Below, one piece after another: positions 1,156 to 59,980 of a stretch of 63,984 nucleotides of DNA; within the stretch, counting starts at the first letter, position 1, and the number at the start of each line of letters is the position of its first letter. The notes below the pieces were generated by a model that saw only the letters and a program-made list of their open reading frames with translations, searched no databases and was not told the DNA's origin. This DNA is from a virus (lineage: Duplodnaviria > Caudoviricetes). The translations under genes and the position numbers were made by a program. The stretch is taken from positions 1-63,984 of the IMG/VR virus record IMGVR_UViG_3300035002_000032. One strand, written 5' to 3'.

Positions 1156-1334
1156 ACCAATGCCTCACGTAGTTGCGCCAGTTGGCCGGCAGTAAATAGA
1201 ATCTTGCGGCCGGAAACCATACACAGGCCGTGTCGCTTGCCCTCCTTGGCAATTCCGCGCGGCGTCATACGCATCGCCTCGGCCGCCTCGTCGAGCGTGT
1301 AGACGCGCTCGAGGTTATCATTATCCGCCTTCAT
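1014..1334 (-). CDS. Excisionase-like HTH protein, overlapping the int start
   Basis: YTLDEAAEAMRMTPR...GRKILFT resembles the MerR/Xis HTH; directly upstream of int; begins MKADNDN. Confidence 0.7.
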   Translation of the reverse strand: MKADNDNLERVYTLDEAAEAMRMTPRGIAKEGKRHGLCMVSGRKILFTAGQLAQLREALVWDSNSSSAARPGTSAARYAATASSKLRELAISRSRKPSVSKLKNAS

Positions 1335-1555
1335 CCCGCCTCCTTCCCAGCCTTGAGGACTGCGCGGCCGGCGGGGGTGAACTGTTTGGGCCAGTCTCTT
1401 AACGAGACGAGAAACGGCGCGCATCCTGTGCGTCGGGCAACCACGTAGTTTTCCACGACACCCATGACGCGAATCGTGGCGTCAGCAGAGAAGCCGGTCG
1501 GGCTGACCTTGTGCCACTTGCTGCCGATTGCGGGCGCCTCCGTCAGCCTGCTCAT
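1331..1555 (-). CDS. Hypothetical phage protein
   Basis: ATGA-coupled to both neighbours in the leftward operon. Confidence 0.55.
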   Translation of the reverse strand: MSRLTEAPAIGSKWHKVSPTGFSADATIRVMGVVENYVVARRTGCAPFLVSLRDWPKQFTPAGRAVLKAGKEAG

Positions 1556-2097
1556 CCCGCACCCCCTTTAAGGGCGCGAGCGACACCTTCCGCCAACGCT
1601 AGCCACTTCTTCTTCGTTGCCTTCGGCGTGATGTCCCACGGCGTAAGGTTCTTGCTGGATTGTAGGGTCTCGCGCAGATATCGACCCGCTGCGTCGATGT
1701 TCCGGGGATCAGCCTCCAGCGCTTCGTCTCGCACGCTTACCCCAACCGGTGAGGTGAGGGCGGCGCGGGCTTTTTCTCCCAAAAGATGCAAGTCGCCATA
1801 GGTGAGGCTGCCCGCCGTGATAGTCCACCCTTTGGGGAGATTTGCGTACCAATCCAGCGCCGACCGCATCCGCGCGACCTCGGCCTCTGCACGGGCTAGA
1901 TGCCCCTGCGCATATCCGTAGTTCAGATCAACTGCCTCGCTCGCTATTTCAAGATCACGCTGCACCCGCGCCAACTGCTCGCGGAGGGAGGCGGCATCCC
2001 GCAGCAGTTTCAAATCTGCCACGGACTGATCATAGTCGCGGTAGAAATCGCCACATTCTATTGTCGTCACGACATCGGCTAACGTGCGCTCAGCCAT
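1552..2097 (-). CDS. Hypothetical coiled-coil phage protein
   Basis: Coupled ORF; AAGGAG RBS before MAERT. Confidence 0.55.
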   Translation of the reverse strand: MAERTLADVVTTIECGDFYRDYDQSVADLKLLRDAASLREQLARVQRDLEIASEAVDLNYGYAQGHLARAEAEVARMRSALDWYANLPKGWTITAGSLTYGDLHLLGEKARAALTSPVGVSVRDEALEADPRNIDAAGRYLRETLQSSKNLTPWDITPKATKKKWLALAEGVARALKGGAG

Positions 2098-2506
2098 TGC
2101 TGTTGCCCTCCTTGGGTGAGGCGGCAAGCATAGCGCGGTAGGCGTCAGCGGCCTCGTTCCCTGTGACGATTAGAGAGGCGGTGTCGGGCAGGATGGCTAG
2201 ACCGCCTGCTCGTTTCATTGCCTCTGTCGGCTCTTCCGGCACGAGCCGCCACCCCTGCTGTACGGGGTGGGTGAAGAGAGGCACATACCCGTCCTGCTCA
2301 TCACGGAACAGGAGTGTGTTGTAGGCATTGCGCCGTGTCAGATATTCGAGGTCTTTCGGGTCGACCCAAGCGACCGCCTCCCGTGGTGCTGCGGCGAGGG
2401 CTGCGGAGATGAAGGGCAACAGTGCTTCGGCAAGCGCGCCGGCCGCAAGCGAATGAGAGCCGTCAACTCGACGGATTTCCTGCGCAAGAGCGTCAACGGT
2501 CAGCAT
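2090..2506 (-). CDS. Hypothetical phage protein
   Basis: Typical phage EAVAW and VPEEPTEAM...YRAMLAA modules; GGAGG RBS before MLTVD. Confidence 0.65.
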   Translation of the reverse strand: MLTVDALAQEIRRVDGSHSLAAGALAEALLPFISAALAAAPREAVAWVDPKDLEYLTRRNAYNTLLFRDEQDGYVPLFTHPVQQGWRLVPEEPTEAMKRAGGLAILPDTASLIVTGNEAADAYRAMLAASPKEGNSNG

Positions 2507-3200
2507 CGGTCTTCTTCCTCCAATACTCGGCGGCAGCACGAGCAACATTGCCCTCCACAACACCGGAGCAGTTAACCGCAGGGCATCCGATGTGTTTGGC
2601 CACATCCCAATCTAGCGGTCGCTTGTCCTCCCACCACGCGGTTGCCGCATTAACCATCGTCATCGCTTCGGCAAGGTCTGCACGCAGCGAGGCGGCTTCT
2701 GCTTCGGCTTCGTTCCAGTGCTGCCGGAACAACTCGACTTCGTTGTTGAGACTTTGCGCGTCTCCCGCGTGCAACTGGATATGCTGCTCCAAACCTGCCA
2801 CCTTTGCATGCAGCGAGGCGATTTCCGCCTGGTCTCGCTTCCGCGCTTCTTCGATCTCATAGCGCAGCCGCTTTGTGGTGTACCGGGGCTGTTCGCTGGA
2901 ATCGATCTCACGGAGATGGGCCAGTTTGGTGCGCAGCGAGGCGATGGTGTCGAGAAGGGCGCGGATGTTCTCGGGAGAGCAGCGGGCTATGTGGGTGGCG
3001 TTTTTCTTATGCCTCGCCTTTGATCGGAAGCTGTCATCAAATCCGGACCAACTAACAACAGGCGCGCGCTCGCCGCATTGGATTTCGTTGATGACGTTCA
3101 TGCCGTGGCGCAGGGGCGCGCAATAGTGGACCCAAGGCCCCGGTGTCACGCCCTCCAGCCCGGCCCGCAGTTCCCGCTCAAGCTCTTCGGTGCCCATCAC
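2493..3200 (-). CDS. Ead/Ea22-like phage protein
   Basis: GVTPGPW...NATHIARCSPENIRALLD signature followed by coiled coil. Confidence 0.65.
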   Translation of the reverse strand: MMGTEELERELRAGLEGVTPGPWVHYCAPLRHGMNVINEIQCGERAPVVSWSGFDDSFRSKARHKKNATHIARCSPENIRALLDTIASLRTKLAHLREIDSSEQPRYTTKRLRYEIEEARKRDQAEIASLHAKVAGLEQHIQLHAGDAQSLNNEVELFRQHWNEAEAEAASLRADLAEAMTMVNAATAWWEDKRPLDWDVAKHIGCPAVNCSGVVEGNVARAAAEYWRKKTDADR

Positions 3201-3460
3201 GCCGCCTTCCTGTTCCGCGTCCGACCGCGATTGTCATTGGCCGCGCGCCAGCGCCTGCCGCCGACATCCATTCCGGTAATCCGCGCGATCTCGCGCCCAA
3301 CTTCTCGAGCGCGGCGCGCAATGTCACGATGATAGTCGCTGTGCTCTCGCAACGCGATTGCTGCGTTGAACTTCGCGATTGAAAAGAACACAGCAGGCGT
3401 CGAGCCCTCCGCGATTGCTTCGCGGGCGGTGAGCATGGTTGGGCAGTTGGCGGCGGTCAT
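3197..3460 (-). CDS. Small hypothetical protein ending in an SsrA-tag-like tail (AANDNRGRTRNRKAA)
   Basis: GGAGG RBS, coupled to neighbours. Confidence 0.6.
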   Translation of the reverse strand: MTAANCPTMLTAREAIAEGSTPAVFFSIAKFNAAIALREHSDYHRDIARRAREVGREIARITGMDVGGRRWRAANDNRGRTRNRKAA

Positions 3461-4578
3461 GCGATCCTCCATGTTGCGCCGTGCAACGCACGGTTGGCGT
3501 CGACTTGTGATTGGCTGTTGGTATTGGCGGCTAACCGCTCACGAACCACCGCAAGCGCCGAATTGCCCTGACGGACCCGAAATGCGAGTGGCCTCAATTC
3601 GGCCGGAAGCCGCGGAACTGCTACCGTTGCAAACTCCTTCTGCGCAAGGTTGTCGTTAGCGACAACAAAAGCAGCGAGGTTTTGTGCTGTTTGGTGCAGG
3701 CCCATCTCAATGGCCGCAGCATACTCGCGCGCTGCCTTTGCGTCAGGCTCGTCCAACAACGAAAGAACATCATCCAGTTCGCCACTCAACACGAGCGCAA
3801 GAACGTTCTTCTCCTGCAAAATGGAATCCTTGGCGCGGCGCTTGAGAACGTAATCGTCACCCTTGGCCTTCACCCACAAGCCACTATCGAACCGTACCAC
3901 GAAGCCCTCGGAGCCTTGAATTGAGCGCGCGTAAGCGAGGAAGTCAGCCGCGTTGGTGTGTCGCGGGACGTGGTGGGTGACGTAGCCAAGGTGCATATCC
4001 TTGGCCCAATCGGTGCACACTGATGGCGGATAGTAGAAACCGTCATCGTGCCGGCGAATGGCCAAAAGAGTCAGTGCCGATTCCTCGTATCGGACCACGA
4101 TCCGATTGTCGGGAGCAGTCCACTCGAAGATAGGTGTAGCCGGGTGCGATGCCTCCAACAAAAGGCGGCACATATAAGCCAGCCGATCGGTCAAATGCCT
4201 CTCCGCCTTCCGCGCTACATCCGTACGACCCATGCGCGTCATGAACACGACTTCGCCATTGACGATCGCCGGATGAATCATACTGCCGTCCAACTTGTCC
4301 ATGATGACGTGCGGCTGGCTGAAATCGATCTTGTCCGGCTGCGTGTCCGGTTTCTCGCCGGCATTGAAGAACTTGTGCAGCGGCCTGGCTAGCACCGAAC
4401 CGTCCGGCGCAAACTTGATGCCTCGGCACTCGACGCGCGCCGGATGTTTGAACGTATCCTCGCCGGCAAAGACGTAGTCGATAACGCTGTAACCGTCCTT
4501 GTCGGCAACCACGAAGTCCTTGCGGCCCTCGATGTGCGGAAGGACGTCGTTAATGTGGGAGATATGGAAGTGGGTCAT
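3457..4578 (-). CDS. T4 Rnl1-like RNA ligase
   Basis: ECRGIKF, HKFFN, motif I KLDGS, IFEW, EGFVV, KAK; likely start MTHFH at 4578. Confidence 0.9.
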   Translation of the reverse strand: MTHFHISHINDVLPHIEGRKDFVVADKDGYSVIDYVFAGEDTFKHPARVECRGIKFAPDGSVLARPLHKFFNAGEKPDTQPDKIDFSQPHVIMDKLDGSMIHPAIVNGEVVFMTRMGRTDVARKAERHLTDRLAYMCRLLLEASHPATPIFEWTAPDNRIVVRYEESALTLLAIRRHDDGFYYPPSVCTDWAKDMHLGYVTHHVPRHTNAADFLAYARSIQGSEGFVVRFDSGLWVKAKGDDYVLKRRAKDSILQEKNVLALVLSGELDDVLSLLDEPDAKAAREYAAAIEMGLHQTAQNLAAFVVANDNLAQKEFATVAVPRLPAELRPLAFRVRQGNSALAVVRERLAANTNSQSQVDANRALHGATWRIA

Positions 4579-11277: not shown

Positions 11278-11862
11278 ATGGCTAAACTTGGAACTACCAT
11301 TCGCCCGCACGATCACGACACAGAGCAGCAGGACTTCGAACTGCTGCCGGACGGCATCTATCGCCTGGAGGTATCTGCCAGCGACGTCAAGAAGGACGAT
11401 GATGGCAATACGGTCGCGAACTTCACGATCGAAGTGGTTGAGCCGGAGGATTTTGCGAAGCGAAGGTTCTTCACTTGGGTCGACATCGAGCATCGGGAGG
11501 CGGAAAAGCAGGCACGCGGACAGCGGGAAATCTCCAAAATGTCCCGCGCCATGTTTGGTGCTGATGCGCCGGAAAACATCGACGACTCCGAGGAGCTGCA
11601 CTTCCGAACGTTCACTGCGCGGGTGAAGAGAAACGAGGCGGGCGTTAGCAAGGCTGGCCGCCCGTACAAGGCCAAGAACAGCATCTCGAAATATTTCTAC
11701 TCGGACGAGGGAGAACTTCCGGAGCCTGAAATCTTCGCCACTCAGCCGGCAACCACCCGCACCGCACCCGCGAACGACAACCGTCAGGCGCCCGCCAATG
11801 ACAATCGGGCTGCTGCGCGGCCGGCGGCAGCTGCGGCTGGCTCGAAGCCGTGGAGGAAGTGA
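11278..11862 (+). CDS. DUF669-like single-stranded DNA-binding protein
   Basis: FELLPDGIY start, flexible tail ending KPWRK; follows the Sak4-like gene; tail has two ANDN copies. Confidence 0.75.
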   Translation: MAKLGTTIRPHDHDTEQQDFELLPDGIYRLEVSASDVKKDDDGNTVANFTIEVVEPEDFAKRRFFTWVDIEHREAEKQARGQREISKMSRAMFGADAPENIDDSEELHFRTFTARVKRNEAGVSKAGRPYKAKNSISKYFYSDEGELPEPEIFATQPATTRTAPANDNRQAPANDNRAAARPAAAAAGSKPWRK

Positions 11863-12316: not shown

Positions 12317-13141
12317 ATGGCTTATAAAGCCGAACGCAAGCAGATTTTCGTAGCGGGCGGAGCGGTGACCAGCGTCTTTACGGGCGCAAAAATCAACGAC
12401 GTTGACGTGTACTTCAAGAGCCGCCGCGCGTTTGAGACTGGCGTTTATCAGTCATACGAAGACGGGCTGTGGTGCGTGGCTGCTAGCAAGCGCGCGGTCA
12501 CCTTCGCAGACCAAGGCGGCAACATTGCTCAGTTGATGCACTTTGACTATTTCCCAACCGCGCACGACATCTTCAAGGCGTTCGATTACACCATATGCAT
12601 GGGTGCGCTGGATCTGGATGCCGGGCCGAAAACCGTGTACAATCCGGGCAATCTCCAGTTCGTGACGATTGGCGACGAGCACCCGGAGTCTGGCTTTGTC
12701 TTTCACCCGGATTTTCTGAAGCACAACAGCCAGCGATTCCTGAAGTTCAATGCAGGCACCCGCTATCCATTGGCGTCGGCGGGCCGCGTTCTGAAATACC
12801 AGCAGCGCGGGTACACCATTGGCAAGGGCGATATCATGAAGATCGCGCTCGCCGTGCGTGGTATCGACATCAATTCATGGGACGACCTCAAGGACCAAAT
12901 TGGCGGAGCCTACGGCGACAAGGTTGTATTCGAAAAGGAAGACACGCCGTTCACACTTGAGGCGGCGATCGAGGCACTGACTGTGGAGGACGCAGAAAGT
13001 GAACCTTGGGCACAGCCGGCAAACGACAACATGCCCGGCGATGCGGAGGCGCTGCTTCGGCACATTGCCGATTTAAATGGAACTGAATTCGTGGCGCCGG
13101 AACTCGATGAGGACGGCTGGCCAAAGAAGTTAGCGGCGTAG
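12317..13141 (+). CDS. Pol-beta-superfamily nucleotidyltransferase (CCA/poly(A) polymerase head-like)
   Basis: FVAGGAVTS...NDVDVYF (GG plus DxD), FDYTIC, RVLKYQQRGY. Confidence 0.7.
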   Translation: MAYKAERKQIFVAGGAVTSVFTGAKINDVDVYFKSRRAFETGVYQSYEDGLWCVAASKRAVTFADQGGNIAQLMHFDYFPTAHDIFKAFDYTICMGALDLDAGPKTVYNPGNLQFVTIGDEHPESGFVFHPDFLKHNSQRFLKFNAGTRYPLASAGRVLKYQQRGYTIGKGDIMKIALAVRGIDINSWDDLKDQIGGAYGDKVVFEKEDTPFTLEAAIEALTVEDAESEPWAQPANDNMPGDAEALLRHIADLNGTEFVAPELDEDGWPKKLAA

Positions 13142-13216
13142 CCTTTCCGCCGCCTGGCCGTGGGTGCTACCAACAGCCACGGCCACCCCATCCAACCCCA
13201 CAACCCGGAGCATCCA

Positions 13217-16251: not shown

Positions 16252-18006
16252 ATGCCCCTCAGATACTACCAGCGAGAGGCGGTAGACGCGATCTTTGACT
16301 ATTGGCGCGAGACGCCAGGCCACCCGCTTGTCGTGGCCGCCACAGGTACCGGCAAGTCGATCATGCAGGCATCATCGACTTGCGAACTGCTGGACGGCTG
16401 GAGCGACATGCGCATCATGAACACCACTCACGTTGTTGAGTTGGTGGAGGGCAACTTTAAGGAGCTTATTGGCCTTCGGCCGTTTGCGCCCGCCGGCATT
16501 GGGGCGTCTTCACTTGGACGTCAGGATTACCACGCGCAGGTATTATTCTCGCAACTGCAGACTGTCCACAGCAAGGCGCGCCAGATTGGCCATGTAGACG
16601 TGCTTCAGATTGATGAGGCGCATCTTGTGCCCTTCAAGCAAGCTACGATGTATCGCCGACTGATTGATGACCTTATGGCCATCAATCCGGACATGAAAAT
16701 CAACGGCTTTACAGCCACGGATTACCGGCTTGACGGGGGGCGTCTAACCGAAGGCGACGGCAAGTTGTTCGATGCTGTTGTTTACGACTATGGCATCCGC
16801 CGCGGCATCGACGATGGCTATCTGACGCCGATCACCAGCAAGCCAGTTGACACAAACTACGACATAACCGGCGTAGGTCGGTCTATGGGCGAGTATAAGG
16901 CGAGCGATTACCGTGCCGCCGTAGACACGGACGAACTCAACCGTCGTGTTGTGCAAGAGGTTTTAGATACGGAGGGCCATCGCAAGAAGGCACTCATTTT
17001 CTGCCGAGGAATCGAGCATGCCGCGCGCGTTCGGGACGAATTCAAGCGGCAAGGACGAGCGGTTGAATTGGTCCATGGCGGGACGCCATCAGGCGAGCGC
17101 AGGAGGCTAATCGAGGATCTGAAAAGCGGCAAACTGTGGGGGTTGGTCAACGATAACATCCTCTCGACAGGCACCAATATCGTTGGCGTTGATTTGATTG
17201 TTGACCTGTATCGAACGATGTCCGCAGGCCGCTACGTCCAGCGCGTCGGGAGAATGACCCGCGTTGTCTATCCGCCTGGCTTTGACCCTGAGTCGGTTGA
17301 TGCCGCTGCGCGACGGGCGGCCATTGCATCATATCTGAAGCCGAATGGCCGATATATGGATTTTGCCGGCAACATATCCGAACACGGGCCGGTTGACATG
17401 GTGCAGCCAAGAAAGCCGGGAAGCGGCAGCGGCGAGGCGCCAATTAAGTTGTGCCCGAACTGCGAGGAGCAGTGCCACGCTTCAGCGCGCATCTGTCATT
17501 GCTGCGACCATGAATTCGTCTTTGAGGAAAAGCCAAAGTTTGCAGAGAGGCCGACCGACGCTCCGATCCTGTCGACAGAAACTGCGGCCTGGCGCCCGGT
17601 CACCAGCCGATCGTTCCGCTTTCATGAGGGGAAGGGCGAAAACCCGCCAAGCGTGAAGGTCACGTACATGTGCGGGCTGACAACGATCAACGAGTGGCTT
17701 TGTCCCCAACACCATGAGCACCCAAACCCGAAGAGCCGCGGCTATCCGACATCCAAGGCTCAAAGATATTGGGCGCAGCACGGCGGGCAGAGGCCGTTCC
17801 CGCGCACCGTTTTGGAGTGGCTTGAGCGTCAGAACGAACTGCTTGTTACGGATGAAATCCAAGTCGAGCCGGACGGCAAGTATTGGAAGCCGCGAGACTA
17901 CAAACCCGGCACCGAACGGCAGTTTGCGGCCGATAACGACAATGGGCGGCCGGCGGATAATGATAACGATTGGAGGCATGAGTTAGATGACGACATCCCC
18001 TTCTGA
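16252..18006 (+). CDS. SF2 DEAH helicase (YejH/RadD-like) with Zn ribbon
   Basis: LRYYQ, ATGTGKS, DEAH, TAT, QRVGR, CxxC; ends DDDIPF. Confidence 0.9.
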   Translation: MPLRYYQREAVDAIFDYWRETPGHPLVVAATGTGKSIMQASSTCELLDGWSDMRIMNTTHVVELVEGNFKELIGLRPFAPAGIGASSLGRQDYHAQVLFSQLQTVHSKARQIGHVDVLQIDEAHLVPFKQATMYRRLIDDLMAINPDMKINGFTATDYRLDGGRLTEGDGKLFDAVVYDYGIRRGIDDGYLTPITSKPVDTNYDITGVGRSMGEYKASDYRAAVDTDELNRRVVQEVLDTEGHRKKALIFCRGIEHAARVRDEFKRQGRAVELVHGGTPSGERRRLIEDLKSGKLWGLVNDNILSTGTNIVGVDLIVDLYRTMSAGRYVQRVGRMTRVVYPPGFDPESVDAAARRAAIASYLKPNGRYMDFAGNISEHGPVDMVQPRKPGSGSGEAPIKLCPNCEEQCHASARICHCCDHEFVFEEKPKFAERPTDAPILSTETAAWRPVTSRSFRFHEGKGENPPSVKVTYMCGLTTINEWLCPQHHEHPNPKSRGYPTSKAQRYWAQHGGQRPFPRTVLEWLERQNELLVTDEIQVEPDGKYWKPRDYKPGTERQFAADNDNGRPADNDNDWRHELDDDIPF

Positions 18007-20089: not shown

Positions 20090-21382
20090 ATGATGAATAG
20101 CGAACCGCAGTACACCAAATCTGAACACCTCGACGGGCGCGTGACGCTCTACGGCGGCGATAACCGCGATGTTTTGCGGGACTTGCCCGACTGCTCGATA
20201 GACAGCATCGTGACTGACCCGCCCTATGCGCTCGTGTCCATCCAGAAGCGGTTCGGCAAGCCGGGCAGCGCGCCCACCAAAGACGGCGACGTCTACAGCC
20301 GCGCTAGTGCCGGATTCATGGGCAAGCAATGGGATACCGGCGAGGTTGCCTTTAGCGAAGTGTTTTGGGCCGAATGCCTCCGCGTGCTGAAGCCTGGCGG
20401 GCACGTTGTGGCGTTCTCCGGCACGCGCACTTACCACCGCATGGCTGTGGCGATCGAGGATGCGGGCTTTGAAATCCGCGATCAGTTGGCTTGGTGCTAT
20501 TTCAGCGGATTCCCCAAAAGCCACAATGTGGGGAAATCGATCGACAAACACCTCGGTGCCGAACGCGAGAAAGTGCGCGTCGATAACCCGCGCATTGCGA
20601 ACATGCCGACCGCCAATACTGGCGCTGGTCGTCCGTGGCTGGATGCCGCAATTGAGCGAGGATACCATGAGAAGGCCGGCGACGAACCGGCCACGCCGCA
20701 GGCTGCGGCGTGGAACTCGTGGGGGACGGCTCTCAAGCCGGCGTGGGAGCCTATCGCATTAGCTAGAAAGCCGCTCATTGGAACGGTTGCGCTTAACGTC
20801 CTTGAACACGGTACGGGGGTGCTGAACATCGACGGTTGTCGAGTCGGCGACGAGCTTAAAGTGGTTACGGCCAGCAACGGGATCCGAATTTCAGAAAACG
20901 GAAGCATGGCCGGCGGCAACTCTGCCATAGTTGCCGCCGGTATCAAGGTTGGTGCTTGGCCGGCGAACATCCTTACGGACGGCAGCGATGAAGTTTTTGC
21001 TGTGTGCGGAGATGCCGCCGAGAACGTCTCGCGCCTATACTTCTCAGCAAAAGCCGACAAACTCGACCGCATCGGCAGCAAGCATCCAACCGTGAAGCCG
21101 GTCGACCTGATGCAATGGCTTGTGCGGCTGGTCACGCCGAAAGGCGGACTGGTGCTGGATCCATTCGCCGGCAGCGGCTCAACGGGCGAGGCGGCATGGC
21201 GCGAGGGTACGCGCTGCATACTAATTGAGCGCGAGGAAGAATACCAGGCCGATATTGCCGAGCGGCTGCGTTTAGCAGACGCCGGGCCGGCTACCCGTAA
21301 GGCACGCGCCGTTAAGCAGGCGGCGAATGACAATGACTTGCCGTTGTTTGGCGGCACTGGCACGGGGGGGGTATCGGGGTGA
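20090..21382 (+). CDS. N6-adenine/N4-cytosine DNA methyltransferase (beta class)
   Basis: DPPY, RVLKPGG, HPTVKP, LDPFAGSGS. Confidence 0.92.
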   Translation: MMNSEPQYTKSEHLDGRVTLYGGDNRDVLRDLPDCSIDSIVTDPPYALVSIQKRFGKPGSAPTKDGDVYSRASAGFMGKQWDTGEVAFSEVFWAECLRVLKPGGHVVAFSGTRTYHRMAVAIEDAGFEIRDQLAWCYFSGFPKSHNVGKSIDKHLGAEREKVRVDNPRIANMPTANTGAGRPWLDAAIERGYHEKAGDEPATPQAAAWNSWGTALKPAWEPIALARKPLIGTVALNVLEHGTGVLNIDGCRVGDELKVVTASNGIRISENGSMAGGNSAIVAAGIKVGAWPANILTDGSDEVFAVCGDAAENVSRLYFSAKADKLDRIGSKHPTVKPVDLMQWLVRLVTPKGGLVLDPFAGSGSTGEAAWREGTRCILIEREEEYQADIAERLRLADAGPATRKARAVKQAANDNDLPLFGGTGTGGVSG

Positions 21383-21824: not shown

Positions 21825-23121
21825 CGGACCAAGCGTCCTAGACCTGTTTAGCGCGGCGGCGGGCGGGTGGTCGTTGGGCATGCATCGCGCGGGCTATCAC
21901 ACCATAGCCGCATGCGAAGTCGTCCCGTGGCGGCGCGCGCTTTACTTGCAGAATAACCCCGGAGTTCCCGTCTATGACGATGTCACCACACTCACCGCAG
22001 ACCGACTTGTTCGGGACGGTATTGGACTTCCCGACGTCATCGTCGGCTCGCCGCCGTGCCAGGACATCAGCAGCGCCAACACCAAAGGCAAGGGCGTCGA
22101 CGGAGAGCGAAGCGGCCTCTACTTCGAGGCTGTCCGACTTATCGACGAATGCCGGCCTCGTTGGTTCGCTCTTGAAAATAGCGCTAATCTCCGAACTAGA
22201 GGCGCTGACCGGATCATCGATGCGCTGGCGGCAATCGGCTACACCTGCTGGCCATTCGTGGTTAGTGCTGGAGACATCGGCGCTAACCACGAACGAAAGC
22301 GAAGCTGGCTCATCGGCTTCAATGCTCGCGACACCGCGCAAGACGGATGCCGATCGGGGCGGGCGTGGGGACGTGCTTTCACAGTTGCGCGGCTATCCGA
22401 GCAAGCATGCGGGGATGCCGACGCCACGAGCATCGGACGCGCATCATGGGGCGGAAGTGGCGAAGGCGCATGCGGAGAAGGCGACTGGCGTGTCACTGGT
22501 GACTGCGCTGCACATGGGCGCCAAGGAAATGTTCCACAAGCCGACAGCGAAGGCCAACTTTGCGTCCGCGAGCATGCAGAAGTGGGAATCGTGCCGGCCG
22601 TGGAATGTAATGTTCGAGACTTTGCCAACGCCAACGAAGCGAGACAAGCGGCTGGACTCCAAGAGTCCAGCCCACGATTGTCGCCACAGTCCGGCGCTGG
22701 ATGCGGTGGTGAGCGGTGCGATGACGGGCAAGGCGTCGGACAAGTGGATTGGCGCGAGGCTGCTGGCACAACTCCTGCAGAGCCGTGGGCTGACTGGAAC
22801 GGCGGCCTTGCCGGTCACCTACGGGTGGATGATGGGCTATCCACCTGGGTGGCTGAGTCGCGCATTGCGGTCGGCGGTCCACGCGGAACAGTTGCGGCTA
22901 GTCTCATCGTTGAAGCCTTCGGGGACGCGGTCTGCCCGCAAATCCCGGAAGCCATCGGCCACGCCATCCTCCGAGTAGAGGCTGCCCTGGCCGCCCTTTA
23001 CGCACCCGCAAACGACAACACGAACAAGGACGCCAGGCCCTTGCAGCCTCAAGCCTTGCAGCAGCCTAGCACGCCACTAGACCTCGCCCTTTCCTACATC
23101 GCTCGCGGATGGCCAAAATGA
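21811..23121 (+). CDS. C5-cytosine DNA methyltransferase, alpha polypeptide
   Basis: LDLFS..GG (I), PPCQ (IV), ENS (VI), HERKR (VIII), FGDAVCPQ (X); motif IX not evident. Confidence 0.85.
   Translation: MLHFDGPSVLDLFSAAAGGWSLGMHRAGYHTIAACEVVPWRRALYLQNNPGVPVYDDVTTLTADRLVRDGIGLPDVIVGSPPCQDISSANTKGKGVDGERSGLYFEAVRLIDECRPRWFALENSANLRTRGADRIIDALAAIGYTCWPFVVSAGDIGANHERKRSWLIGFNARDTAQDGCRSGRAWGRAFTVARLSEQACGDADATSIGRASWGGSGEGACGEGDWRVTGDCAAHGRQGNVPQADSEGQLCVREHAEVGIVPAVECNVRDFANANEARQAAGLQESSPRLSPQSGAGCGGERCDDGQGVGQVDWREAAGTTPAEPWADWNGGLAGHLRVDDGLSTWVAESRIAVGGPRGTVAASLIVEAFGDAVCPQIPEAIGHAILRVEAALAALYAPANDNTNKDARPLQPQALQQPSTPLDLALSYIARGWPK
21974..22978 (+). CDS. Nested alternative-frame ORF: probable beta polypeptide of the C5 methyltransferase
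   Basis: Repeated (L/M)xTP..D modules and motif-IX-like WMMGYPPGW; entirely inside the alpha gene; true start uncertain. Confidence 0.7.
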   Translation: MTMSPHSPQTDLFGTVLDFPTSSSARRRARTSAAPTPKARASTESEAASTSRLSDLSTNAGLVGSLLKIALISELEALTGSSMRWRQSATPAGHSWLVLETSALTTNESEAGSSASMLATPRKTDADRGGRGDVLSQLRGYPSKHAGMPTPRASDAHHGAEVAKAHAEKATGVSLVTALHMGAKEMFHKPTAKANFASASMQKWESCRPWNVMFETLPTPTKRDKRLDSKSPAHDCRHSPALDAVVSGAMTGKASDKWIGARLLAQLLQSRGLTGTAALPVTYGWMMGYPPGWLSRALRSAVHAEQLRLVSSLKPSGTRSARKSRKPSATPSSE

Positions 23122-23647: not shown

Positions 23648-26013
23648 CAGAACTTGACCTAGCCCTTTCCTACGCCGAAGCCGGCGTTCCCGTTTTCCCT
23701 TGTCGCGCCGCCGATGAGGATACCGGCCAACACGATCCTGACACCGGAGAAGTGATAATCCTCAAAGCAAAGACGCCTCTGGTCAGTAACGGCTTTAAGG
23801 GTGCCACGAAGAACATTCCTCTCATCAAGCGCATGTGGCCGCGCTTCCCCGGCGCAATGGTCGGGATTCCCACGGGAGAGCAGTTAGGCGCGTGGGTGCT
23901 TGACATCGACGTTCACAGGGATGACGATGGCAAAATCATCAACGGCTTTGAAACACTAGCCGCGCTCGAGGATGTTCACGGCCCGCTTCCACGCACCGCC
24001 GTCGCCAGAACAGCTGGTGGCGGCGAGCATCACTATTTCGAATACGCCCCTGGCGTTCGTAACCGAGGGCGCCTCGGCGCCGGTCTGGACGTTCGAGGTT
24101 CGGGTGGCTATGTGATCGCCCCTGGCAGCAAGACTGCGGATGGCCGCGATTATCTGTGGGTGGACTTTGATGGCCTCGGCCTTCCTCCGTTGCCGGCCGC
24201 GCCCGATTGGTTGCTTGAGCTTGTCCTACCAAAGGCGCCAGTGCAACACGGCGGTGATTATTCGTACGGTGGAGGCGACAATTCAGCGTATGTCGAGCGT
24301 GCCGTTTCTGATGAATTGCGGATGCTGGCAACTGCCCCACAAGGCTCGCGTGGTGAGGCGGTCAACCGTAGTGCATTCAACCTTGGAACAATGGTCGGAG
24401 CCGGCGCCCTGTCTCGATCAGAGGCCGAAGCCGGGTTGCTTGACGCTGCCTACGCCAACGGCGTGGTGGCGAAAGATGGCGAGAAAGAGATAAGGGCCAA
24501 AATCCGCCGCGGTCTGGATGCTGGCATAAAGCAACCGCGCCAGATACGGGAGCCCGATTATTGGAGCGACGGGACACGCCCGGTTAAGCTCGACGGCATG
24601 ATTGCGAAGGGTCTAGTGAAAAAGGCGCCTGCCCCCACAGCGGCGGCGCCCGCTGTCGTGTCCGAAGTTTGTATACATTCTTCGGACAGCGCGCAGACCG
24701 AGCACGAGGACGATGTGCCTGATTACAAGCTCGAGGCCGTGGCCGACCTTGAGTCACTGACCTATCCTGGCGGACTGGTAGAAGACCTTATTGATTGGAT
24801 AGTGTCGTCGGCGGAGTATCCTTCGCGAACGCTTGCAATGGCTGCCGTCCTGCCCATGGTCGCGGCATTATGTGGCGCCCGCTATTCAACCGGCAGTCGC
24901 GATACCAGGACCAACATCTACACGGTGGCGTTGGCAGAATCCGGCTTCGGCAAGGAACATGCCCGCAGCCAGATAAAACGCATCCTGATGAATGACCGCG
25001 GTGTATTTAGCGACTATAGCGGCCCGGCCCGTATTATGTCTGCGTCTGCGCTTCGTGAGGTGCTGGAAAAGAACTCGTCCGTCAACTGTCAAATCGATGA
25101 GTTCGGTGGCTTTGTTCGGGAAATTACCGATCGCAAGGCGGGCAGCCACCAACGTGCAATCTCAACGGACATGCGCGATTACTACTCGGCATCGTCTACG
25201 TTTTTTGAGGGCGCTGCGTACCGCGGTACGCCCCCGAAACGCATCTATAATCCGTGCCTATGCATCCACGGGACGTCAACGCCAGAGCAATTCTGGACGG
25301 CCCTTTCGTCCGCCAGCGCCGAAGATGGACTTTTGCCACGACTGATACTGTTTCACGTCAAGGGCGAAAAGCCAGCGGCTGTTAAGCCGAAGCGTGATGT
25401 TAGAGACGTTTCGCACATCCTAATGGAGCGGATGGCCGGGGTTGCGGGCATTGACGTCGCCAAGAAGCGCGGAAACTTAGCCGAAAAGGGTATAAAGGTT
25501 AAGGCCGATTGGGCGGAGAACAAGCCTTATATCGTGCCGTGGACGCCAGATGCAGAAGGCGTTTTCATGGCCGTAAAGGAGACCATTGATGCGAGGGAGG
25601 GGCAAGTTGCGGTGGAGGAGCGGCCTTTCGTTCGGCGCATTGTGGAGAACGCTATCAAGCTGGCGCTTATCGTTGCAGTCGGGAAGGATCCGTCCGAGCC
25701 AATTATAACCGAGGCGGACTTTGAATGGGCCGCTGCTGTAGCGTGGACATGCGCCGCAGGCATGCTGGCCGAGGTGGGAGACCGCCTGGCCGACAATCAG
25801 CGTGAGGCAAACTACAAGAAGATTGCCGGCCTCATACGAAAGGCTGGCAAGAAGGGTATCACAGAGGGTCGTATGTTCGACCGATGCAAGGCGATCGACG
25901 GATGGCAGAAGAAGGAAATTCTCGAAGAACTTTTCAAGACCGGAAGCGTCGTTGTGGCCGCCAACGACAATAAATCCGGGCGCCCCGCGAAGCGGCTTGT
26001 GTGGGCCGAATAA
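23644..26013 (+). CDS. Bifunctional primase-polymerase fused to a helicase-like (DUF3987-type) domain
   Basis: PVFPC, VLDID, GGEHHYF, LDVRGSGGYVIAPGS; ESGFGKE, IDEFG, DGLLPR. Confidence 0.9.
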   Translation: MTELDLALSYAEAGVPVFPCRAADEDTGQHDPDTGEVIILKAKTPLVSNGFKGATKNIPLIKRMWPRFPGAMVGIPTGEQLGAWVLDIDVHRDDDGKIINGFETLAALEDVHGPLPRTAVARTAGGGEHHYFEYAPGVRNRGRLGAGLDVRGSGGYVIAPGSKTADGRDYLWVDFDGLGLPPLPAAPDWLLELVLPKAPVQHGGDYSYGGGDNSAYVERAVSDELRMLATAPQGSRGEAVNRSAFNLGTMVGAGALSRSEAEAGLLDAAYANGVVAKDGEKEIRAKIRRGLDAGIKQPRQIREPDYWSDGTRPVKLDGMIAKGLVKKAPAPTAAAPAVVSEVCIHSSDSAQTEHEDDVPDYKLEAVADLESLTYPGGLVEDLIDWIVSSAEYPSRTLAMAAVLPMVAALCGARYSTGSRDTRTNIYTVALAESGFGKEHARSQIKRILMNDRGVFSDYSGPARIMSASALREVLEKNSSVNCQIDEFGGFVREITDRKAGSHQRAISTDMRDYYSASSTFFEGAAYRGTPPKRIYNPCLCIHGTSTPEQFWTALSSASAEDGLLPRLILFHVKGEKPAAVKPKRDVRDVSHILMERMAGVAGIDVAKKRGNLAEKGIKVKADWAENKPYIVPWTPDAEGVFMAVKETIDAREGQVAVEERPFVRRIVENAIKLALIVAVGKDPSEPIITEADFEWAAAVAWTCAAGMLAEVGDRLADNQREANYKKIAGLIRKAGKKGITEGRMFDRCKAIDGWQKKEILEELFKTGSVVVAANDNKSGRPAKRLVWAE

Positions 26014-29112: not shown

Positions 29113-29121
29113 ACATAAATA

Positions 29122-57352: not shown

Positions 57353-57513
57353 TAGGAAGCTATGATGAAAATCGCACTATTAGTTGCCGGATATGGTCTG
57401 TGTGCCGGGTCAGGCGCAATCATTATGGACCAGCCTCTGCTGGGCATCCCGCTGTTAATTTCCGGGCTGGCGCATGTTGTAGCCGGCAGCATCATAAACG
57501 CGGAATCCGCACA

Positions 57514-58782
57514 TTGACCCCACCCGTTTCAGACTACGATATTGCCCGCACCGTTGAAGTGCGCGCCCGCCACAAAGACAACGTTTCGGCCGCCGCAGAG
57601 CTTGGCGTGAACGAAAGCACGGTACGCCGCCGCATGGCAGTTGCTGCCGAGCGCGGAATGCTCTCATTGGATCCGGTCATGCCGGGTTTTGCCATCAAGA
57701 GCGTCGCCAGCAAGACGGTCGACGGCAAGTGGGTGAAGCAGGTCAAGGCGGCCGGCGATGTCCATGAAATCCCGGAGGGCTTCACGCTCAAGCGAGATTC
57801 GGCCTACACGGACGGCGAGGGACGCCGCATCGGCGGATGGCGTATCAGCGAGCCGTCCAAGGAACAGCAGCTTGCTGCAATGCGGGCGGTCGCGGACGCC
57901 TTGAAGGAGGAGTTGCCTCGTCTGCCCGCCTCTCCGGCGCCTGCGCACGTACGGGAAGACCTTCTCAACCAGTTCGTGATTACAGATAGCCACTTCGGGA
58001 TGCTTGCCTGGCATGAAGAGACCGGGGCGTCCTACGACCTGCGGATTGCCGAGCAACTGCTGCTTGACTGGTTTTCCGTGGCGATCGAGTTGGCGCCGCC
58101 CGCCCACACCGCCGTTTTCGCTCAGCTCGGCGACTTCATGCATCACGACGCGCTGGAATCCGTGACGCCCGCTCACAAGCACGTGCTCGATGCGGACAGC
58201 CGCCTGCAGAAGATTATCCGGGTGGTCATCCGCACCACGCGCCGCGTCATAGACATGCTCTTGCGCAAGCATCAGCACGTCCACATCGTCATGGCGGCCG
58301 GCAACCACGACCCGGCCTCGAGCGCATGGCTGCGTGAGATGCTGGCGGCCATGTACGAAAACGAACCGCGCATCACTGTCGATAACAGCCCGTCGCTGTA
58401 CTACGCCTACGAATGGGGCGGAACGATGCTGGCCTATCATCACGGTCACAAGCGTGGCGTGAAGGACGTTGACGCCGTTGTGGCGGCAATCTTCCGTGAG
58501 ATGTACGGCCGCAGCTCTACCGCGTACGTGCATGTCGGGCACCGCCACAGCGACGAAGGCAAGAAGACGCGCCTTATGTACGTTGAGCAGCACGAGACGC
58601 TTGCCGCCAAGGACGCGTTCAATGCTGGTGGCGGGTGGCCGGGCGGGCGCTCGGCAAAGGTAATCACCTATTCGAAGACCGGCGGCGAGGTTATCCGACT
58701 GACGCTTCGGCCGGAGATGGTCGCGGGCGCTGCCAAGTTGCAGTCCGCAAACGACAACAGCGAATGGAGGGCTGCGGCGTGA
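57514..58782 (+). CDS. Calcineurin-like metallophosphoesterase with N-terminal HTH
   Basis: DSH, GDFMH, GNHD, HGH, GHRH; likely TTG start; ends SANDNSEWRAAA. Confidence 0.85.
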   Translation: MTPPVSDYDIARTVEVRARHKDNVSAAAELGVNESTVRRRMAVAAERGMLSLDPVMPGFAIKSVASKTVDGKWVKQVKAAGDVHEIPEGFTLKRDSAYTDGEGRRIGGWRISEPSKEQQLAAMRAVADALKEELPRLPASPAPAHVREDLLNQFVITDSHFGMLAWHEETGASYDLRIAEQLLLDWFSVAIELAPPAHTAVFAQLGDFMHHDALESVTPAHKHVLDADSRLQKIIRVVIRTTRRVIDMLLRKHQHVHIVMAAGNHDPASSAWLREMLAAMYENEPRITVDNSPSLYYAYEWGGTMLAYHHGHKRGVKDVDAVVAAIFREMYGRSSTAYVHVGHRHSDEGKKTRLMYVEQHETLAAKDAFNAGGGWPGGRSAKVITYSKTGGEVIRLTLRPEMVAGAAKLQSANDNSEWRAAA

Positions 58783-59035
58783 GTGACGGGGACGCAAAGG
58801 AACTGCGCATTGAGGCAAAAGACAACCGGGCACTGGCGCAGTGCTATCGAGATCAAGCTGCAGATTGCATTAAAAAAGCCGAGGACAAAGAGCGCCGCGC
58901 CGCCAGGCTAGAGCGCGCCGCGGACGCGTCTGGATGCGCTTAGCCAATGACCCACATCGAAGCCATCGCGCTATGGCTGTTTGGCGCCCTCATTGTGCTT
59001 GGCATGTGCAACTGGATTTTTCAGGAGGTTTTGTG

Positions 59036-59980
59036 ATGCTGCTATACGACCCGCCAAGCGGCTGGCGCTTCGGATTCCCCAAGCCTTATCGTCCCATGGC
59101 GGACGAAGCTCTTGAGGACACGCTTGTCCGTGACGGCTACCCGAAAAGCAGCGCTGAGTTCGGCGCGAAGCACTGCCGGTTCATCGGCACCGCAGAAGGA
59201 GTTGCAGTAGGTGGCATGACCGCGCAAACCAAACAGTGGGACCGCGTTGCGCGCATGTACGTGGAGGGCTGTCCGGACGACACGCAGGCGGCCGAGACGT
59301 TTGGGGAGTTGCTGTGCAACTACGGCAGCGACTTGTGCGTCTGCCCGCCAGCCGCCAACGACAACATGCGCCAGGTTGCGGCACCCGCAACGGAGCGCAA
59401 CGGCAATGAGCGAGTCGGCCACTACATATCGACGCTGACCGGCAGGTTCTGGCCGTTCGACCCGCGACCTGAAGACGTCGACATCAACCACATTGCGCAC
59501 AGCCTAGCGATGTCGTGCCGGTACACTGGTGCGTGCCGTCGCTTCTATTCAACCGCAGAGCATTCGGTGCATATCGCGCAGTGGCTGACCGCGCGTGGCT
59601 TTCATCCGATCGTCGCTCTAGCCGGGCTTCTACACGACGCGCCAGAAACCCTATCTGGCTTCGGCGATACGGCGCGCCCGTCCAAGGTCAAAGCGCCAAT
59701 CATCAAGGAAACCGAGGAGCGCATTTGGGATTTGGCAGTTGCGCCAGCATTTGGCCTTGCTGATGGCGGACTGCCCATTGCCGTTCACGAGGCGGACAGC
59801 CGCATCATCGCCGACGAGATGCAGCAGAACATGCACGAGGTGGATCCAAACTACACCAACCCACTCGGCATCCAACTGAAGTACTGGTCTCCAGACGTCG
59901 CAGAACTGCACTTCCTCCACACGTTCAACCAACTGCAAGATGAGCGCGCGAGGGCTGAAAAGATGGGGGTAGCGGCGTGA
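59036..59980 (+). CDS. HD-domain phosphohydrolase (YfbR/YfdR-like) with N-terminal extension
   Basis: IAHSL..CRYTG, YSTAEHS, LLHDA.E, AD. Confidence 0.85.
   Translation: MLLYDPPSGWRFGFPKPYRPMADEALEDTLVRDGYPKSSAEFGAKHCRFIGTAEGVAVGGMTAQTKQWDRVARMYVEGCPDDTQAAETFGELLCNYGSDLCVCPPAANDNMRQVAAPATERNGNERVGHYISTLTGRFWPFDPRPEDVDINHIAHSLAMSCRYTGACRRFYSTAEHSVHIAQWLTARGFHPIVALAGLLHDAPETLSGFGDTARPSKVKAPIIKETEERIWDLAVAPAFGLADGGLPIAVHEADSRIIADEMQQNMHEVDPNYTNPLGIQLKYWSPDVAELHFLHTFNQLQDERARAEKMGVAA

What the first reader, a model, noticed from the sequence alone, without database searches (positions are those of the whole stretch)
1314..59365. Genome-wide, genetically encoded SsrA (tmRNA)-tag mimics: (A/D)NDN in about 14 unrelated phage proteins
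Seen: ANDN or ADNDN occurs in the coding frame of Xis (about 1314-1328), the 3197-3460 protein (3230), RNA ligase (3650), SSB (twice, about 11770 and 11794), nucleotidyltransferase (13019), helicase (twice, about 17930-17968), the N6/N4 MTase (about 21320), the C5 MTase (23008), primase (25957), VRR-NUC (27609), the 27644 protein (27788), portal (33990), phosphoesterase (58747) and HD hydrolase (59351). It appears on both strands, follows gene direction, lies mostly in linkers or tails, and uses varied synonymous codons (GCC/GCG/GCA/GCT, AAC/AAT, GAC/GAT). That pattern suggests selection on the peptide rather than on a DNA site. Four proteins end in tag-like tails: AANDNDEDEAEEAA, AANDNQAQRAVA, SANDNSEWRAAA and AANDNRGRTRNRKAA. 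Known: the Caulobacter tmRNA tag is AANDNFAEEFAVAA; the N-terminal part of SsrA tags binds the SspB adaptor and the terminal AA is read by ClpX. Inference: the phage hard-wires SspB docking sites into much of its proteome. This could act as a proteolytic timer, recruit ClpX for remodelling, or titrate SspB away from host substrates.
Basis: partly seen in the sequence, partly recalled or inferred. Interest (0 to 1): 0.9.

Follow-up and report, generated by a model that had tools for sequence, protein, structure and literature searches.

The report
Phage proteins copy host ssrA tag
A temperate phage of root-nodule-type bacteria has written the first residues of its host's "destroy-me" (tmRNA/ssrA) tag, Ala-Asn-Asp-Asn, and often the tag's Ala-Ala ending, into the loose ends of 14 unrelated proteins; this probably hands them to the host SspB-ClpXP protease, but binding and degradation have never been measured.

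Summary
The window is a complete 64-kb provirus related to Rhizobium phage 16-3.

- **Enrichment.** ANDN is the most over-represented tetrapeptide of its proteome: 12 found against 0.16 expected. Four ADNDN variants add to this. All 16 lie in frame on the coding strand, with mixed synonymous codons.
- **Position.** Thirteen of the 16 lie at the very start or in the last 15% of 14 unrelated, mostly DNA-handling proteins.
- **Relatives and hosts.** Phage 16-3, RHph_X2_25 and 22 related loci show the same enrichment. Two host genomes of related prophages show almost none outside the prophage and the tmRNA gene.
- **Match to the host tag.** All 26 tmRNA tags read in that bacterial order start ANDN and end AA. 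Phage tails copy both ends and the tag's length. C-terminal Ala-Ala is 3 to 5 times more frequent than in a host sample.

The SspB/ClpXP reading is the best explanation (about 0.55), but it rests on resemblance only.

Against a general rule: the trait is confined to phages that share genes with this one. Two other alphaproteobacterial phages lack it, and the E. coli-type tag head is not enriched in viral contigs. A phage-encoded reader therefore remains possible.

This scan reported the same motif earlier in at least 30 other genomes. My literature searches found no paper describing it.

The parts
1314..1328 (-). ADNDN at residues 3-7 of the Xis-like protein (gene 1014-1334)
   Evidence: The N-terminal position is kept in 16-3 Xis (AANDN) and in X2_25 (DNDN).
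3200..3244 (-). Tag-like tail AANDN-x8-AA at the C-terminus of a 91-residue protein of unknown family (gene 3197-3472)
   Evidence: No Pfam or PHROG match.
3649..3660 (-). ANDN at residue 371-374 of 437 in RNA ligase, beyond the ligase domain (residues 114-314)
11770..11781 (+). First ANDN in the C-terminal linker of the DUF669/SSB protein (gene 11278-11862)
   Evidence: Aligned NDN in 17 of 17 orthologues at a mean identity of 37%.
11794..11805 (+). Second ANDN in the SSB linker, a local duplication of APANDNR
   Evidence: Not aligned in any of 17 orthologues.
13019..13030 (+). ANDN at residue 239-242 of 278 in a nucleotidyltransferase-like protein that ends in AA
   Evidence: Aligned NDN in 3 of 4 orthologues.
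17929..17943 (+). First ADNDN in the helicase C-terminal tail
   Evidence: Aligned NDN in 12 of 23 orthologues.
17953..17967 (+). Second ADNDN in the helicase tail, 13 residues before a terminal DDDIPF
   Evidence: Aligned NDN in 20 of 23 orthologues.
21323..21334 (+). ANDN in the tail of the N6/N4 DNA methyltransferase, followed directly by DLPLF
   Evidence: Aligned NDN in 9 of 9 orthologues.
23008..23019 (+). ANDN near the C-terminus of the C5 cytosine methyltransferase
   Evidence: Absent from 2 of 2 orthologues, so a lineage-specific gain.
25960..25971 (+). ANDN 13 residues from the C-terminus of the Prim-Pol primase
   Evidence: Absent from 5 of 5 orthologues.
27609..27644 (+). Tag-like tail AANDNQAQRAVA at the C-terminus of the VRR-NUC-like protein (gene 27141-27647)
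   Evidence: Aligned NDN in 5 of 13 orthologues, and NDN nearby in 8 of 13.
27788..27802 (+). ADNDN at residues 49-53 of the 230-residue protein 27644-28336
   Evidence: Aligned NDN in 3 of 3 orthologues. The flanks are conserved too, so this one may lie in folded sequence.
33990..34031 (+). Tag-like tail AANDNDEDEAEEAA at the C-terminus of the portal protein
   Evidence: The 16-3 portal ends in the same way.
58744..58779 (+). Tag-like tail SANDNSEWRAAA at the C-terminus of the DNA-repair exonuclease (phrog_704)
   Evidence: Aligned NDN in 2 of 2 orthologues.
59354..59365 (+). ANDN upstream of the HD core of the dNMP phosphatase; the protein ends in AA
   Evidence: Absent from 2 of 2 orthologues.

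Best explanation
[Ala/Pro]-[Ala/Asp]-Asn-Asp-Asn is a short linear peptide motif that the phage lineage has evolved again and again in the floppy ends and linkers of unrelated, mostly non-virion proteins. It copies the invariable first residues of the host's tmRNA (ssrA) tag.

Inferred mechanism: the motif docks on the tag-binding domain of the host adaptor SspB, whose tail tethers the cargo to ClpX.
- Where the protein also ends in Ala-Ala about 11-14 residues after the motif, the tail is a complete hard-coded degron, and ClpXP degrades the protein. In this window that holds for the portal, the exonuclease and the 91-residue protein. The VRR-NUC-like tail ends Val-Ala.
- Where only the head is present (10 of the 14 proteins), SspB tethering would raise the local concentration at ClpX. 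Any weak terminal signal could then be used.

Likely purpose: short, host-controlled lifetimes for early enzymes such as nucleases, methyltransferases and Xis. This would apply both during the lytic programme and against leaky expression in lysogens.

Shown here: enrichment, selection at the peptide level, identity with the host tag's head, co-enrichment of the Ala-Ala end, tag-like spacing, and presence of SspB in likely hosts.

Inferred only: binding, degradation and purpose.
For: **Enrichment at the peptide level**
- ANDN is the top tetrapeptide: 12 found against 0.16 expected. All 12 are in frame, with mixed codons.
- Order matters. In 22 related loci (416 kb), NDN occurs 272 times against NND 18 and DNN 15. 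ANDN occurs 154 times against NDNA 14, ADNN 0 and ANND 4.

**Shared by relatives, absent from hosts**
- The same enrichment holds in phage 16-3 (18 ANDN among 22 NDN) and RHph_X2_25 (20 among 28).
- In the Bosea genome (6.1 Mb) there are 20 coding sites. Ten lie in a 55-kb prophage and one is the tmRNA gene.
- In the Pseudohoeflea genome there are 16 sites. Seven lie on the prophage contig and one is the tmRNA gene. The reversed control gave 4 in each genome.
- A 400-kb Bosea sample has 0 ANDN in 111,660 residues.
- None of the 9 remaining Bosea sites lies in a C-terminal tail.

**Match to the host tag and its reader**
- The tags of the two hosts are ANDNNARVAVAA and ANDNNAKGYAVAA.
- All 26 tags found next to sspB in the order start ANDN and end AA.
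- SspB was found in 40 of 41 genomes sampled.
- C-terminal AA: window 14 of 80, 16-3 16 of 77, X2_25 23 of 80, relatives 162 of 453, host 24 of 363. Fisher p = 0.0035 for the window and 6e-25 for the relatives.
- Of 127 distinct tails, 51 are 11-14 residues long, and 34 of these end in AA.

**Across viral contigs**
- IMG/VR holds AANDN-x6-AA-stop in 99 stretches, against 6 for the reversed head. Of the 99, 85 are the ends of long ORFs.

**Conservation and turnover**
- The motif is kept in hypervariable tails: SSB 17 of 17, N6 methyltransferase 9 of 9, helicase 20 of 23. It has been newly gained in primase, C5 methyltransferase and the HD phosphatase.
- Virion modules are depleted: 4 of 54 motifs against 16.8 expected in three genomes.

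**From the literature**
- In Caulobacter, deleting sspB slows the loss of an ssrA-tagged protein (passage read in PMC9393093).
Against: - No binding or degradation has been measured, and no tool result here shows contact with SspB.
- The residues after NDN differ from the host tags. Across 340 sites, phage +1 is Arg 54, Val 36 and others, and +2 is Pro 108. Host tags have Tyr/Phe/Asn and then Ala. If SspB-alpha also reads those positions, the mimic may bind weakly. The two papers that map these determinants were not held.
- Ten of the 14 proteins have the head but no nearby Ala-Ala. The helicase tails end in IPF.
- Essential, long-lived proteins (portal, SSB, helicase) carry the motif.
- The trait is lineage-bound. 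Extra ANDN runs at 2.51 per 10 kb in 74 IMG/VR loci that share genes with the window. It runs at 0.34 per 10 kb in 11 loci that do not, and the control runs at 0.38-0.46.
- Sinorhizobium phage PBC5 (first 50 kb) and Rhodobacter phage RcapMu have 0 ANDN.
- The E. coli-type head AANDENY is not enriched in viral contigs: 8 stretches against 28 for the reversed control.
Confidence: 0.55

Rival explanations
1. The motif is a docking peptide for another reader. The reader would be either a protein encoded by this phage lineage (for example its own beta sliding clamp, or an unrecognised adaptor) or a host factor other than SspB. It would gather DNA-handling enzymes at a common hub. The likeness to the ssrA head would then be coincidental or secondary.
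For: - The trait is confined to phages that share genes with the window and is absent from two other alphaproteobacterial phages.
- A phage beta clamp (13160-14272, three Pfam clamp domains) is present in 23 of the 23 relatives whose sequence covers that region.
- Most carriers are DNA enzymes, the class that carries clamp-docking peptides in other systems (general knowledge).
- The motif stands beside other docking peptides: a DDDIPF-type end in the helicase and a DLF/LPLF-type element in the N6 methyltransferase.
Against: - This does not explain the co-enriched C-terminal Ala-Ala, or why tail length matches the native tag.
- It does not explain why the motif equals the invariable tag head in all 26 host tags.
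- ANDN is polar, whereas the clamp cleft binds hydrophobic peptides (recalled consensus). The methyltransferase tails carry a separate clamp-type element after ANDN.
- Carriers also include a portal, a phosphatase and Xis here, and a kinase, MazG, capsid and tape-measure proteins in relatives.
- No SspB-family protein is encoded in the window.
Confidence: 0.2
2. The docking is the same (SspB/ClpX), but the purpose is not destruction of the carriers. Abundant ANDN proteins would saturate SspB and queue ClpXP. That would stabilise other substrates or disturb host proteolysis. Alternatively, dimeric SspB would bridge proteins that carry several motifs.
For: - Ten of the 14 carriers lack a nearby Ala-Ala end.
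- The abundant SSB and the helicase each carry two motifs.
- Essential proteins carry the motif.
- Queueing at ClpXP-SspB by tagged proteins is a described effect in E. coli (abstract of PMC12013620, seen in the listing).
Against: - The Ala-Ala end is strongly enriched, and full-length tag copies are common. Decoys for SspB alone would not need them.
- Virion proteins are depleted of the motif. That fits lifetime control better than bulk titration.
Confidence: 0.15
3. ANDN is the cleavage site of the phage's trypsin-like serine protease (53384-54028), which would trim tails off phage proteins.
For: The window, phage 16-3 and X2_25 each encode a Trypsin_2-type peptidase outside the virion module.
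Against: - A homologue was found in only 4 of 10 related viral records. Six records estimated 92-100% complete, whose fetched loci are ANDN-rich, gave no match.
- This does not explain the Ala-Ala ends or the identity with the host tag.
Confidence: 0.03
4. The signal is a DNA or RNA site (a methylation, restriction, packaging or nuclease target) and not a peptide.
For: The DNA word is strongly over-represented.
Against: - All 12 GCNAAYGAYAAY matches lie in the coding frame on the coding strand. Only 1 of 19 AAYGAYAAY is out of frame.
- Every third position varies synonymously, in line with genome codon use.
- The three minus-strand sites lie in minus-strand genes.
Confidence: 0.01

Closest known systems
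Native tmRNA (ssrA) tag of Alphaproteobacteria, read by the adaptor SspB-alpha and by ClpXP
   Same: - Same first residues: (A)ANDN.
- Same Ala-Ala C-terminus in many tails.
- Same overall length, 11-14 residues against 12-13.
It has solved relatives from Agrobacterium (2NYS) and Caulobacter (2QAS, 2QAZ).
   Different: - The copy is encoded in the gene, not added by trans-translation.
- The middle of the tag is not copied: phage +1/+2 residues are not Tyr/Phe/Asn followed by Ala.
- Many copies are internal or N-terminal, or lack the Ala-Ala end.
Natural ClpX substrates with gene-encoded C-terminal Ala-Ala-type degrons, and natural SspB cargo such as the E. coli RseA fragment
   Same: A degron or adaptor-binding peptide that is part of the protein's own sequence. 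SspB delivery of RseA to ClpXP is described in a passage of PMC5587285.
   Different: Those are single regulatory proteins, and the RseA peptide does not resemble the ssrA head (recalled). Here one five-residue copy of the tag head is spread over 14 unrelated proteins of one phage and over a whole phage lineage.
Phage-encoded SspB homologue (Pseudomonas phage pf16 gp18)
   Same: Another route by which a phage could touch the SspB pathway (passage read in PMC5587285).
   Different: That phage carries the adaptor, not the tag. This window encodes no SspB-family protein.
Hub-docking short linear motifs such as sliding-clamp-binding peptides and the acidic SSB C-terminal tip
   Same: - A few residues long, in disordered ends of many unrelated DNA enzymes.
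- Gained and lost quickly.
- Such elements sit right after ANDN in the methyltransferase and helicase tails.
   Different: The sequence is unlike either consensus (recalled). Carriers include non-DNA proteins. The motif is coupled to an Ala-Ala terminus.

Membership tests
ssrA-type two-part degron (SspB-binding head plus ClpX-binding Ala-Ala end) | Head identical to the first residues of the host's own tag | tested here: met
   The tags of two hosts of related prophages, and of 24 further genomes of the order, all start ANDN. The phage motif is [A/P]-A-N-D-N. The host of this window itself is not known.
ssrA-type two-part degron (SspB-binding head plus ClpX-binding Ala-Ala end) | Free C-terminal Ala-Ala at tag-like distance from the head | tested here: met
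   - Met for 3 window proteins (portal, exonuclease, 91-residue protein). VRR-NUC ends Val-Ala. Ten carriers do not meet it.
- In relatives, 34 of the 51 tails that are 11-14 residues long end in AA.
- The AA end is enriched against the host.
ssrA-type two-part degron (SspB-binding head plus ClpX-binding Ala-Ala end) | Added co-translationally by tmRNA | tested here: not met
   The peptides are encoded in the open reading frames. They are mimics, not ssrA tags.
ssrA-type two-part degron (SspB-binding head plus ClpX-binding Ala-Ala end) | Binds SspB | not testable with these tools
SspB is available in likely hosts.
ssrA-type two-part degron (SspB-binding head plus ClpX-binding Ala-Ala end) | SspB- and ClpXP-dependent degradation of the carrier | not testable with these tools
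   Needs stability assays in wild-type, sspB and clpX backgrounds.
Short linear motif under selection | Lies in termini or linkers, is kept while flanks vary, and is gained independently in non-homologous proteins | tested here: met
   - Thirteen of 16 sites lie at the N-terminus or at relative position 0.85 or later, outside the matched domains.
- SSB 17 of 17 at 37% identity; gains in primase, C5 methyltransferase and HD phosphatase.
DNA-level site (restriction, methylation or packaging target) | Occurs regardless of reading frame and gene strand | tested here: not met
   Twelve of 12 sites are in frame on the coding strand, and third positions vary.
Beta-clamp-binding peptide | Hydrophobic pentapeptide of the Gln-Leu-x-Leu-Phe type (consensus recalled, not from a call) | tested here: not met
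   ANDN is polar. A separate DLF/LPLF/LDIF element follows it in 9 of 9 N6 methyltransferase tails.

The most novel reading that the evidence does not exclude
The motif would not be a death mark but a hijack of the host's quality-control adaptor. Under this reading a whole lineage of temperate alphaproteobacterial phages uses a five-residue copy of the ssrA head as a proteome-wide address code.
- Dimeric SspB would bridge carriers with several motifs (SSB and helicase carry two each) into a ClpX-linked assembly of phage DNA enzymes.
- At the same time the flood of decoys would queue ClpXP, the protease that drives the alphaproteobacterial cell cycle (this role of ClpXP is recalled; no call here shows it). 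That would freeze the host in a state that favours the phage.
Probability: 0.12. Interest if true: 0.9.

Novelty: new variant of a known kind. Interest (0 to 1): 0.8.

Why it matters
If the reading holds, a family of temperate phages controls the fate of about a sixth of its proteins (14 of the 84 called here) by copying a host quality-control signal.

- **Phage-host biology.** This would be a simple, evolvable "lifetime code" of a kind not described for phages in the papers I could search.
- **A testable role for SspB-alpha.** It would give the adaptor a large set of natural, gene-encoded clients, where few are known.
- **Why tails evolve fast.** It would explain why early phage enzymes in this group carry rapidly changing tails.
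- **Tools.** It would supply ready-made, graded degron tails for rhizobia and Agrobacterium.
- **Ease of testing.** Phage 16-3 and its host are laboratory organisms.

Tried and rejected
**Structure prediction of the complex.** I ran an SspB domain (residues 1-125, alignment A1 of 28 sequences) with the last 44 residues of the VRR-NUC-like protein. The verdict was "no answer" (score 0.00, mark 0.32, controls not run). It counts neither for nor against binding.

**Phage-encoded SspB.** No PF04386 match in the window at E <= 1.

A homologue was found in only 4 of 10 related records. Rejected as a general explanation.

**DNA-site reading.** Rejected on frame and codon evidence.

**Does mimicry track any host's tag?** The E. 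coli-type head AANDENY is not enriched in IMG/VR: 8 stretches against 28 for the reversed control. Only one of the 8 looks like a tmRNA gene. The rule does not extend to that tag in this test.

**Is every alphaproteobacterial phage a carrier?** PBC5 (first 50 kb only) and RcapMu have no ANDN.

**Close DNA relatives.** Megablast of the packaging-head region against the phage collection found nothing.

**Literature.**
- The searches were: 'ANDN' with 'phage' (21 papers, 20 listed); 'AANDN' anywhere (99 papers, 30 listed); 'ssrA-like' with 'phage' and 'SspB' (1 paper); 'phage 16-3' with 'ClpX' (1 paper). By the titles and abstracts listed, none describes this motif in phages.
- The 69 unlisted papers and the one unlisted paper were not seen.
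- I read passages only of PMC9963277, PMC9393093, PMC8138137 and PMC5587285.
- Chien et al. 2007 (Structure), Lessner et al. 2007 (J Bacteriol) and Bhat et al. 2013 are not held. Which tag residues SspB-alpha reads is therefore not documented here.
- I asked for no supplementary files.

**Limits of my counts.**
- Gene calls come from my own codon-score script, so protein counts are approximate.
- Several related loci are near-duplicates: L006 and L024 look identical, and L017, L018, L019 and L028 are very close. Counts over loci are therefore not independent.

Full report
**What the window is.** The window is the whole record: one 63,984-bp contig that IMG/VR classes as a provirus and estimates as complete. 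G+C content is 58-61%. It has no near-identical record in the phage collection. Its large terminase is 75% identical in protein to that of Rhizobium phage 16-3 and 74% to that of RHph_X2_25, a phage of Sinorhizobium americanum. Family searches found the following:
- a tyrosine integrase, a CI-type repressor and an RNA ligase;
- an AAA_24 ATPase, a DUF669/SSB protein and a phage beta clamp;
- a superfamily-2 helicase, N6/N4 and C5 DNA methyltransferases and a Prim-Pol primase;
- terminase and portal proteins, a trypsin-like peptidase, a DNA-repair exonuclease and a dNMP phosphatase.

- AAYGAYAAY occurs 19 times on both strands, against 2.06 expected from dinucleotide shuffles. GCNAAYGAYAAY occurs 12 times, against 0.32.
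- Eighteen of the 19 lie in the frame and on the strand of a gene I called.
- I scanned all tri-, tetra- and pentapeptides of 84 called proteins without choosing a motif beforehand. NDN ranked first among tripeptides (18 against 1.28 expected) and ANDN first among tetrapeptides (12 against 0.16, corrected p = 7e-14).
- The only comparable signals come from a tandem repeat inside a single protein.
- Shuffling residues within each protein 5000 times gave a mean of 0.158 ANDN and never more than 4.
- Codons inside the motif follow genome usage, and all four Ala codons occur. Selection therefore acts on the peptide.
- Two in-frame NDN are not part of the motif. VNDN in the helicase core is a conserved fold element, and PNDN in the terminase is not conserved.
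- That leaves 16 tag-type sites (12 ANDN, 4 ADNDN) in 14 proteins. Twelve lie at relative position 0.85 or later, and one lies at residues 3-7 of Xis.

**It is a lineage trait and not a host trait.**
- Phage 16-3 has 18 ANDN among 22 NDN, and RHph_X2_25 has 20 among 28.
- Twenty-two loci around helicase homologues (20 IMG/VR contigs, plus prophages in a Bosea and a Pseudohoeflea genome; 416 kb with some near-duplicates) hold 272 NDN, against 18 NND and 15 DNN. They hold 154 ANDN, against 14 NDNA, 0 ADNN and 4 ANND.
- In the 6.1-Mb Bosea genome the coding word occurs 20 times. Ten lie in a 55-kb prophage and one in the tmRNA gene.
- In the 3.8-Mb Pseudohoeflea genome it occurs 16 times. Seven lie on the prophage contig and one in the tmRNA gene. 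The reversed word gave 4 in each genome.
- A 400-kb sample of the Bosea chromosome (363 called genes, 111,660 residues) has no ANDN.
- None of the nine remaining Bosea sites lies in a C-terminal tail.

**Relation to the host tag.**
- ARAGORN reads the tags of these two hosts as ANDNNARVAVAA and ANDNNAKGYAVAA.
- SspB (PF04386) was found in 40 of 41 genomes sampled from the same order.
- In 26 of 31 sspB loci a tmRNA gene lies within 1.5 kb, and all 26 tags start ANDN, continue Tyr/Phe/Asn-Ala and end Ala-Ala.
- The phage consensus over 340 sites is Ala or Pro at -2; Ala (203), Asp (41) or Ser (26) at -1; then NDN; then a variable residue; and often Pro at +2 (108).
- The phage therefore copies the tRNA-borne Ala plus ANDN, but not the next two tag residues.

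**The other end of the tag is copied too.**
- C-terminal Ala-Ala closes 14 of 80 window proteins, 16 of 77 in 16-3, 23 of 80 in X2_25 and 162 of 453 in the relatives' early regions. In the host sample it closes 24 of 363. Fisher p ranges from 0.0035 to 6e-25.
- Among 127 distinct tails with NDN near the stop codon, 51 measure 11-14 residues from the Ala before NDN to the end, like the 12-13 residue native tags. Of those 51, 34 end in AA.
- A scan of 2.9 million viral contigs found AANDN-x6-AA-TGA in 99 stretches, against 6 for the same pattern with the head reversed.
- Fourteen of the 99 have fewer than 45 open codons upstream and look like real tmRNA genes. The other 85 close long reading frames.

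**Evolution of the sites.**
- The motif is kept in tails that are otherwise hypervariable: SSB 17 of 17 orthologues at 37% mean identity, N6 methyltransferase 9 of 9, and the second helicase site 20 of 23.
- It is patchy in VRR-NUC (5 of 13).
- In primase (0 of 5), C5 methyltransferase (0 of 2) and the HD phosphatase (0 of 2) it is unique to this phage.
- Conservation together with repeated independent gain is the signature of a selected short linear motif.
- Virion modules are depleted: 4 of 54 motifs in three genomes, against 16.8 expected by length.

**Mechanism.**
- The simplest reading is that the motif docks on the tag-binding domain of host SspB, which tethers cargo to ClpX. Tails that also end in Ala-Ala at tag-like distance would then be complete, gene-encoded degrons.
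- In E. coli the SspB domain binds the first seven tag residues and its tail binds ClpX (passage in PMC9963277).
- In Caulobacter, removing sspB slows the loss of an ssrA-tagged protein (passage in PMC9393093).
- Solved SspB structures from Agrobacterium and Caulobacter match the host protein.
- A short, host-set lifetime makes sense for nucleases, methyltransferases and Xis of a temperate phage, and it fits the depletion of the motif in virion proteins.
- All of this is inference. Nothing here shows contact or decay.

**Evidence that limits the reading.**
- The trait is bound to one gene pool. IMG/VR loci that share at least one protein with the window carry 2.51 extra ANDN per 10 kb. Loci that share none carry 0.34, at control level.
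- Sinorhizobium phage PBC5 and Rhodobacter phage RcapMu have none.
- The E. coli-type head is not enriched in viral contigs.
- A reader encoded by the lineage is therefore possible. Its beta clamp is present in 23 of 23 covered relatives. The trypsin-like peptidase is present in only 4 of 10.
- The clamp idea explains neither the Ala-Ala ends, nor the tag-like length, nor the identity with the tag head. The methyltransferase tails also carry a separate clamp-type element after ANDN.
- Ten of the 14 carriers have the head only, so titration or bridging remains open as the purpose.

**Known or new.** Gene-encoded ClpX degrons and single natural SspB clients are known, and one phage encodes an SspB homologue (passage in PMC5587285). 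My four literature searches found no description of ANDN mimicry in phages among the listed papers. This scan itself has reported the same motif in at least 30 other genomes, mostly 16-3-like prophages, always with the same untested reading. I class it as a new variant of a known kind. It is real, strongly supported as a selected peptide signal, and its reader is still to be shown.

Noticed in passing
window 17986-18003 (helicase C-terminus): The helicase ends in DDDIPF, an acidic tip with Ile-Pro-Phe like the C-terminal tip of bacterial SSB (the likeness is recalled). Most helicase relatives end in a similar D/E-rich stretch followed by [IV]PF. The DUF669/SSB protein of the phage ends differently.
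   Followed up: partly
window 21335-21349 and gene 13160-14272: The N6 methyltransferase tail has DLPLF directly after ANDN. All 9 orthologues have a DLF, LPLF or LDIF element there. It resembles a sliding-clamp-binding peptide (consensus recalled), and the phage encodes its own beta clamp.
   Followed up: partly
window 8709-9668: A 319-residue protein holds 13 tandem copies of a nine-residue unit, APAATTG-[D/E]-[R/G/Y]. Its function is unknown.
   Followed up: no
window 28738-29355: A cluster of five tRNA genes (Trp, Pro, Gln, Gly, Thr) lies between the early region and the packaging genes.
   Followed up: no
loci L134-L164 (host genomes): In 26 of 31 loci from the order, sspB lies within 1.5 kb of the tmRNA gene, so reader and tag are neighbours.
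   Followed up: partly
IMG/VR loci such as L033, L034, L042, L067, L103: Fourteen viral contigs, with about 41-46% G+C in those whose values I looked at, carry what look like real tmRNA genes. Their tags include AANDNNVDLALAA. These may be provirus borders at ssrA or phage-borne tmRNA genes.
   Followed up: no
window 1329-1334: The Xis-like gene starts at an ATG that overlaps the stop codon of the upstream gene (ATGA). ADNDN follows two codons later.
   Followed up: no
window 53384-54028: A trypsin-like peptidase (Trypsin_2) lies outside the virion module and itself ends in Ala-Ala. Homologues were found in only 4 of 10 related records.
   Followed up: partly
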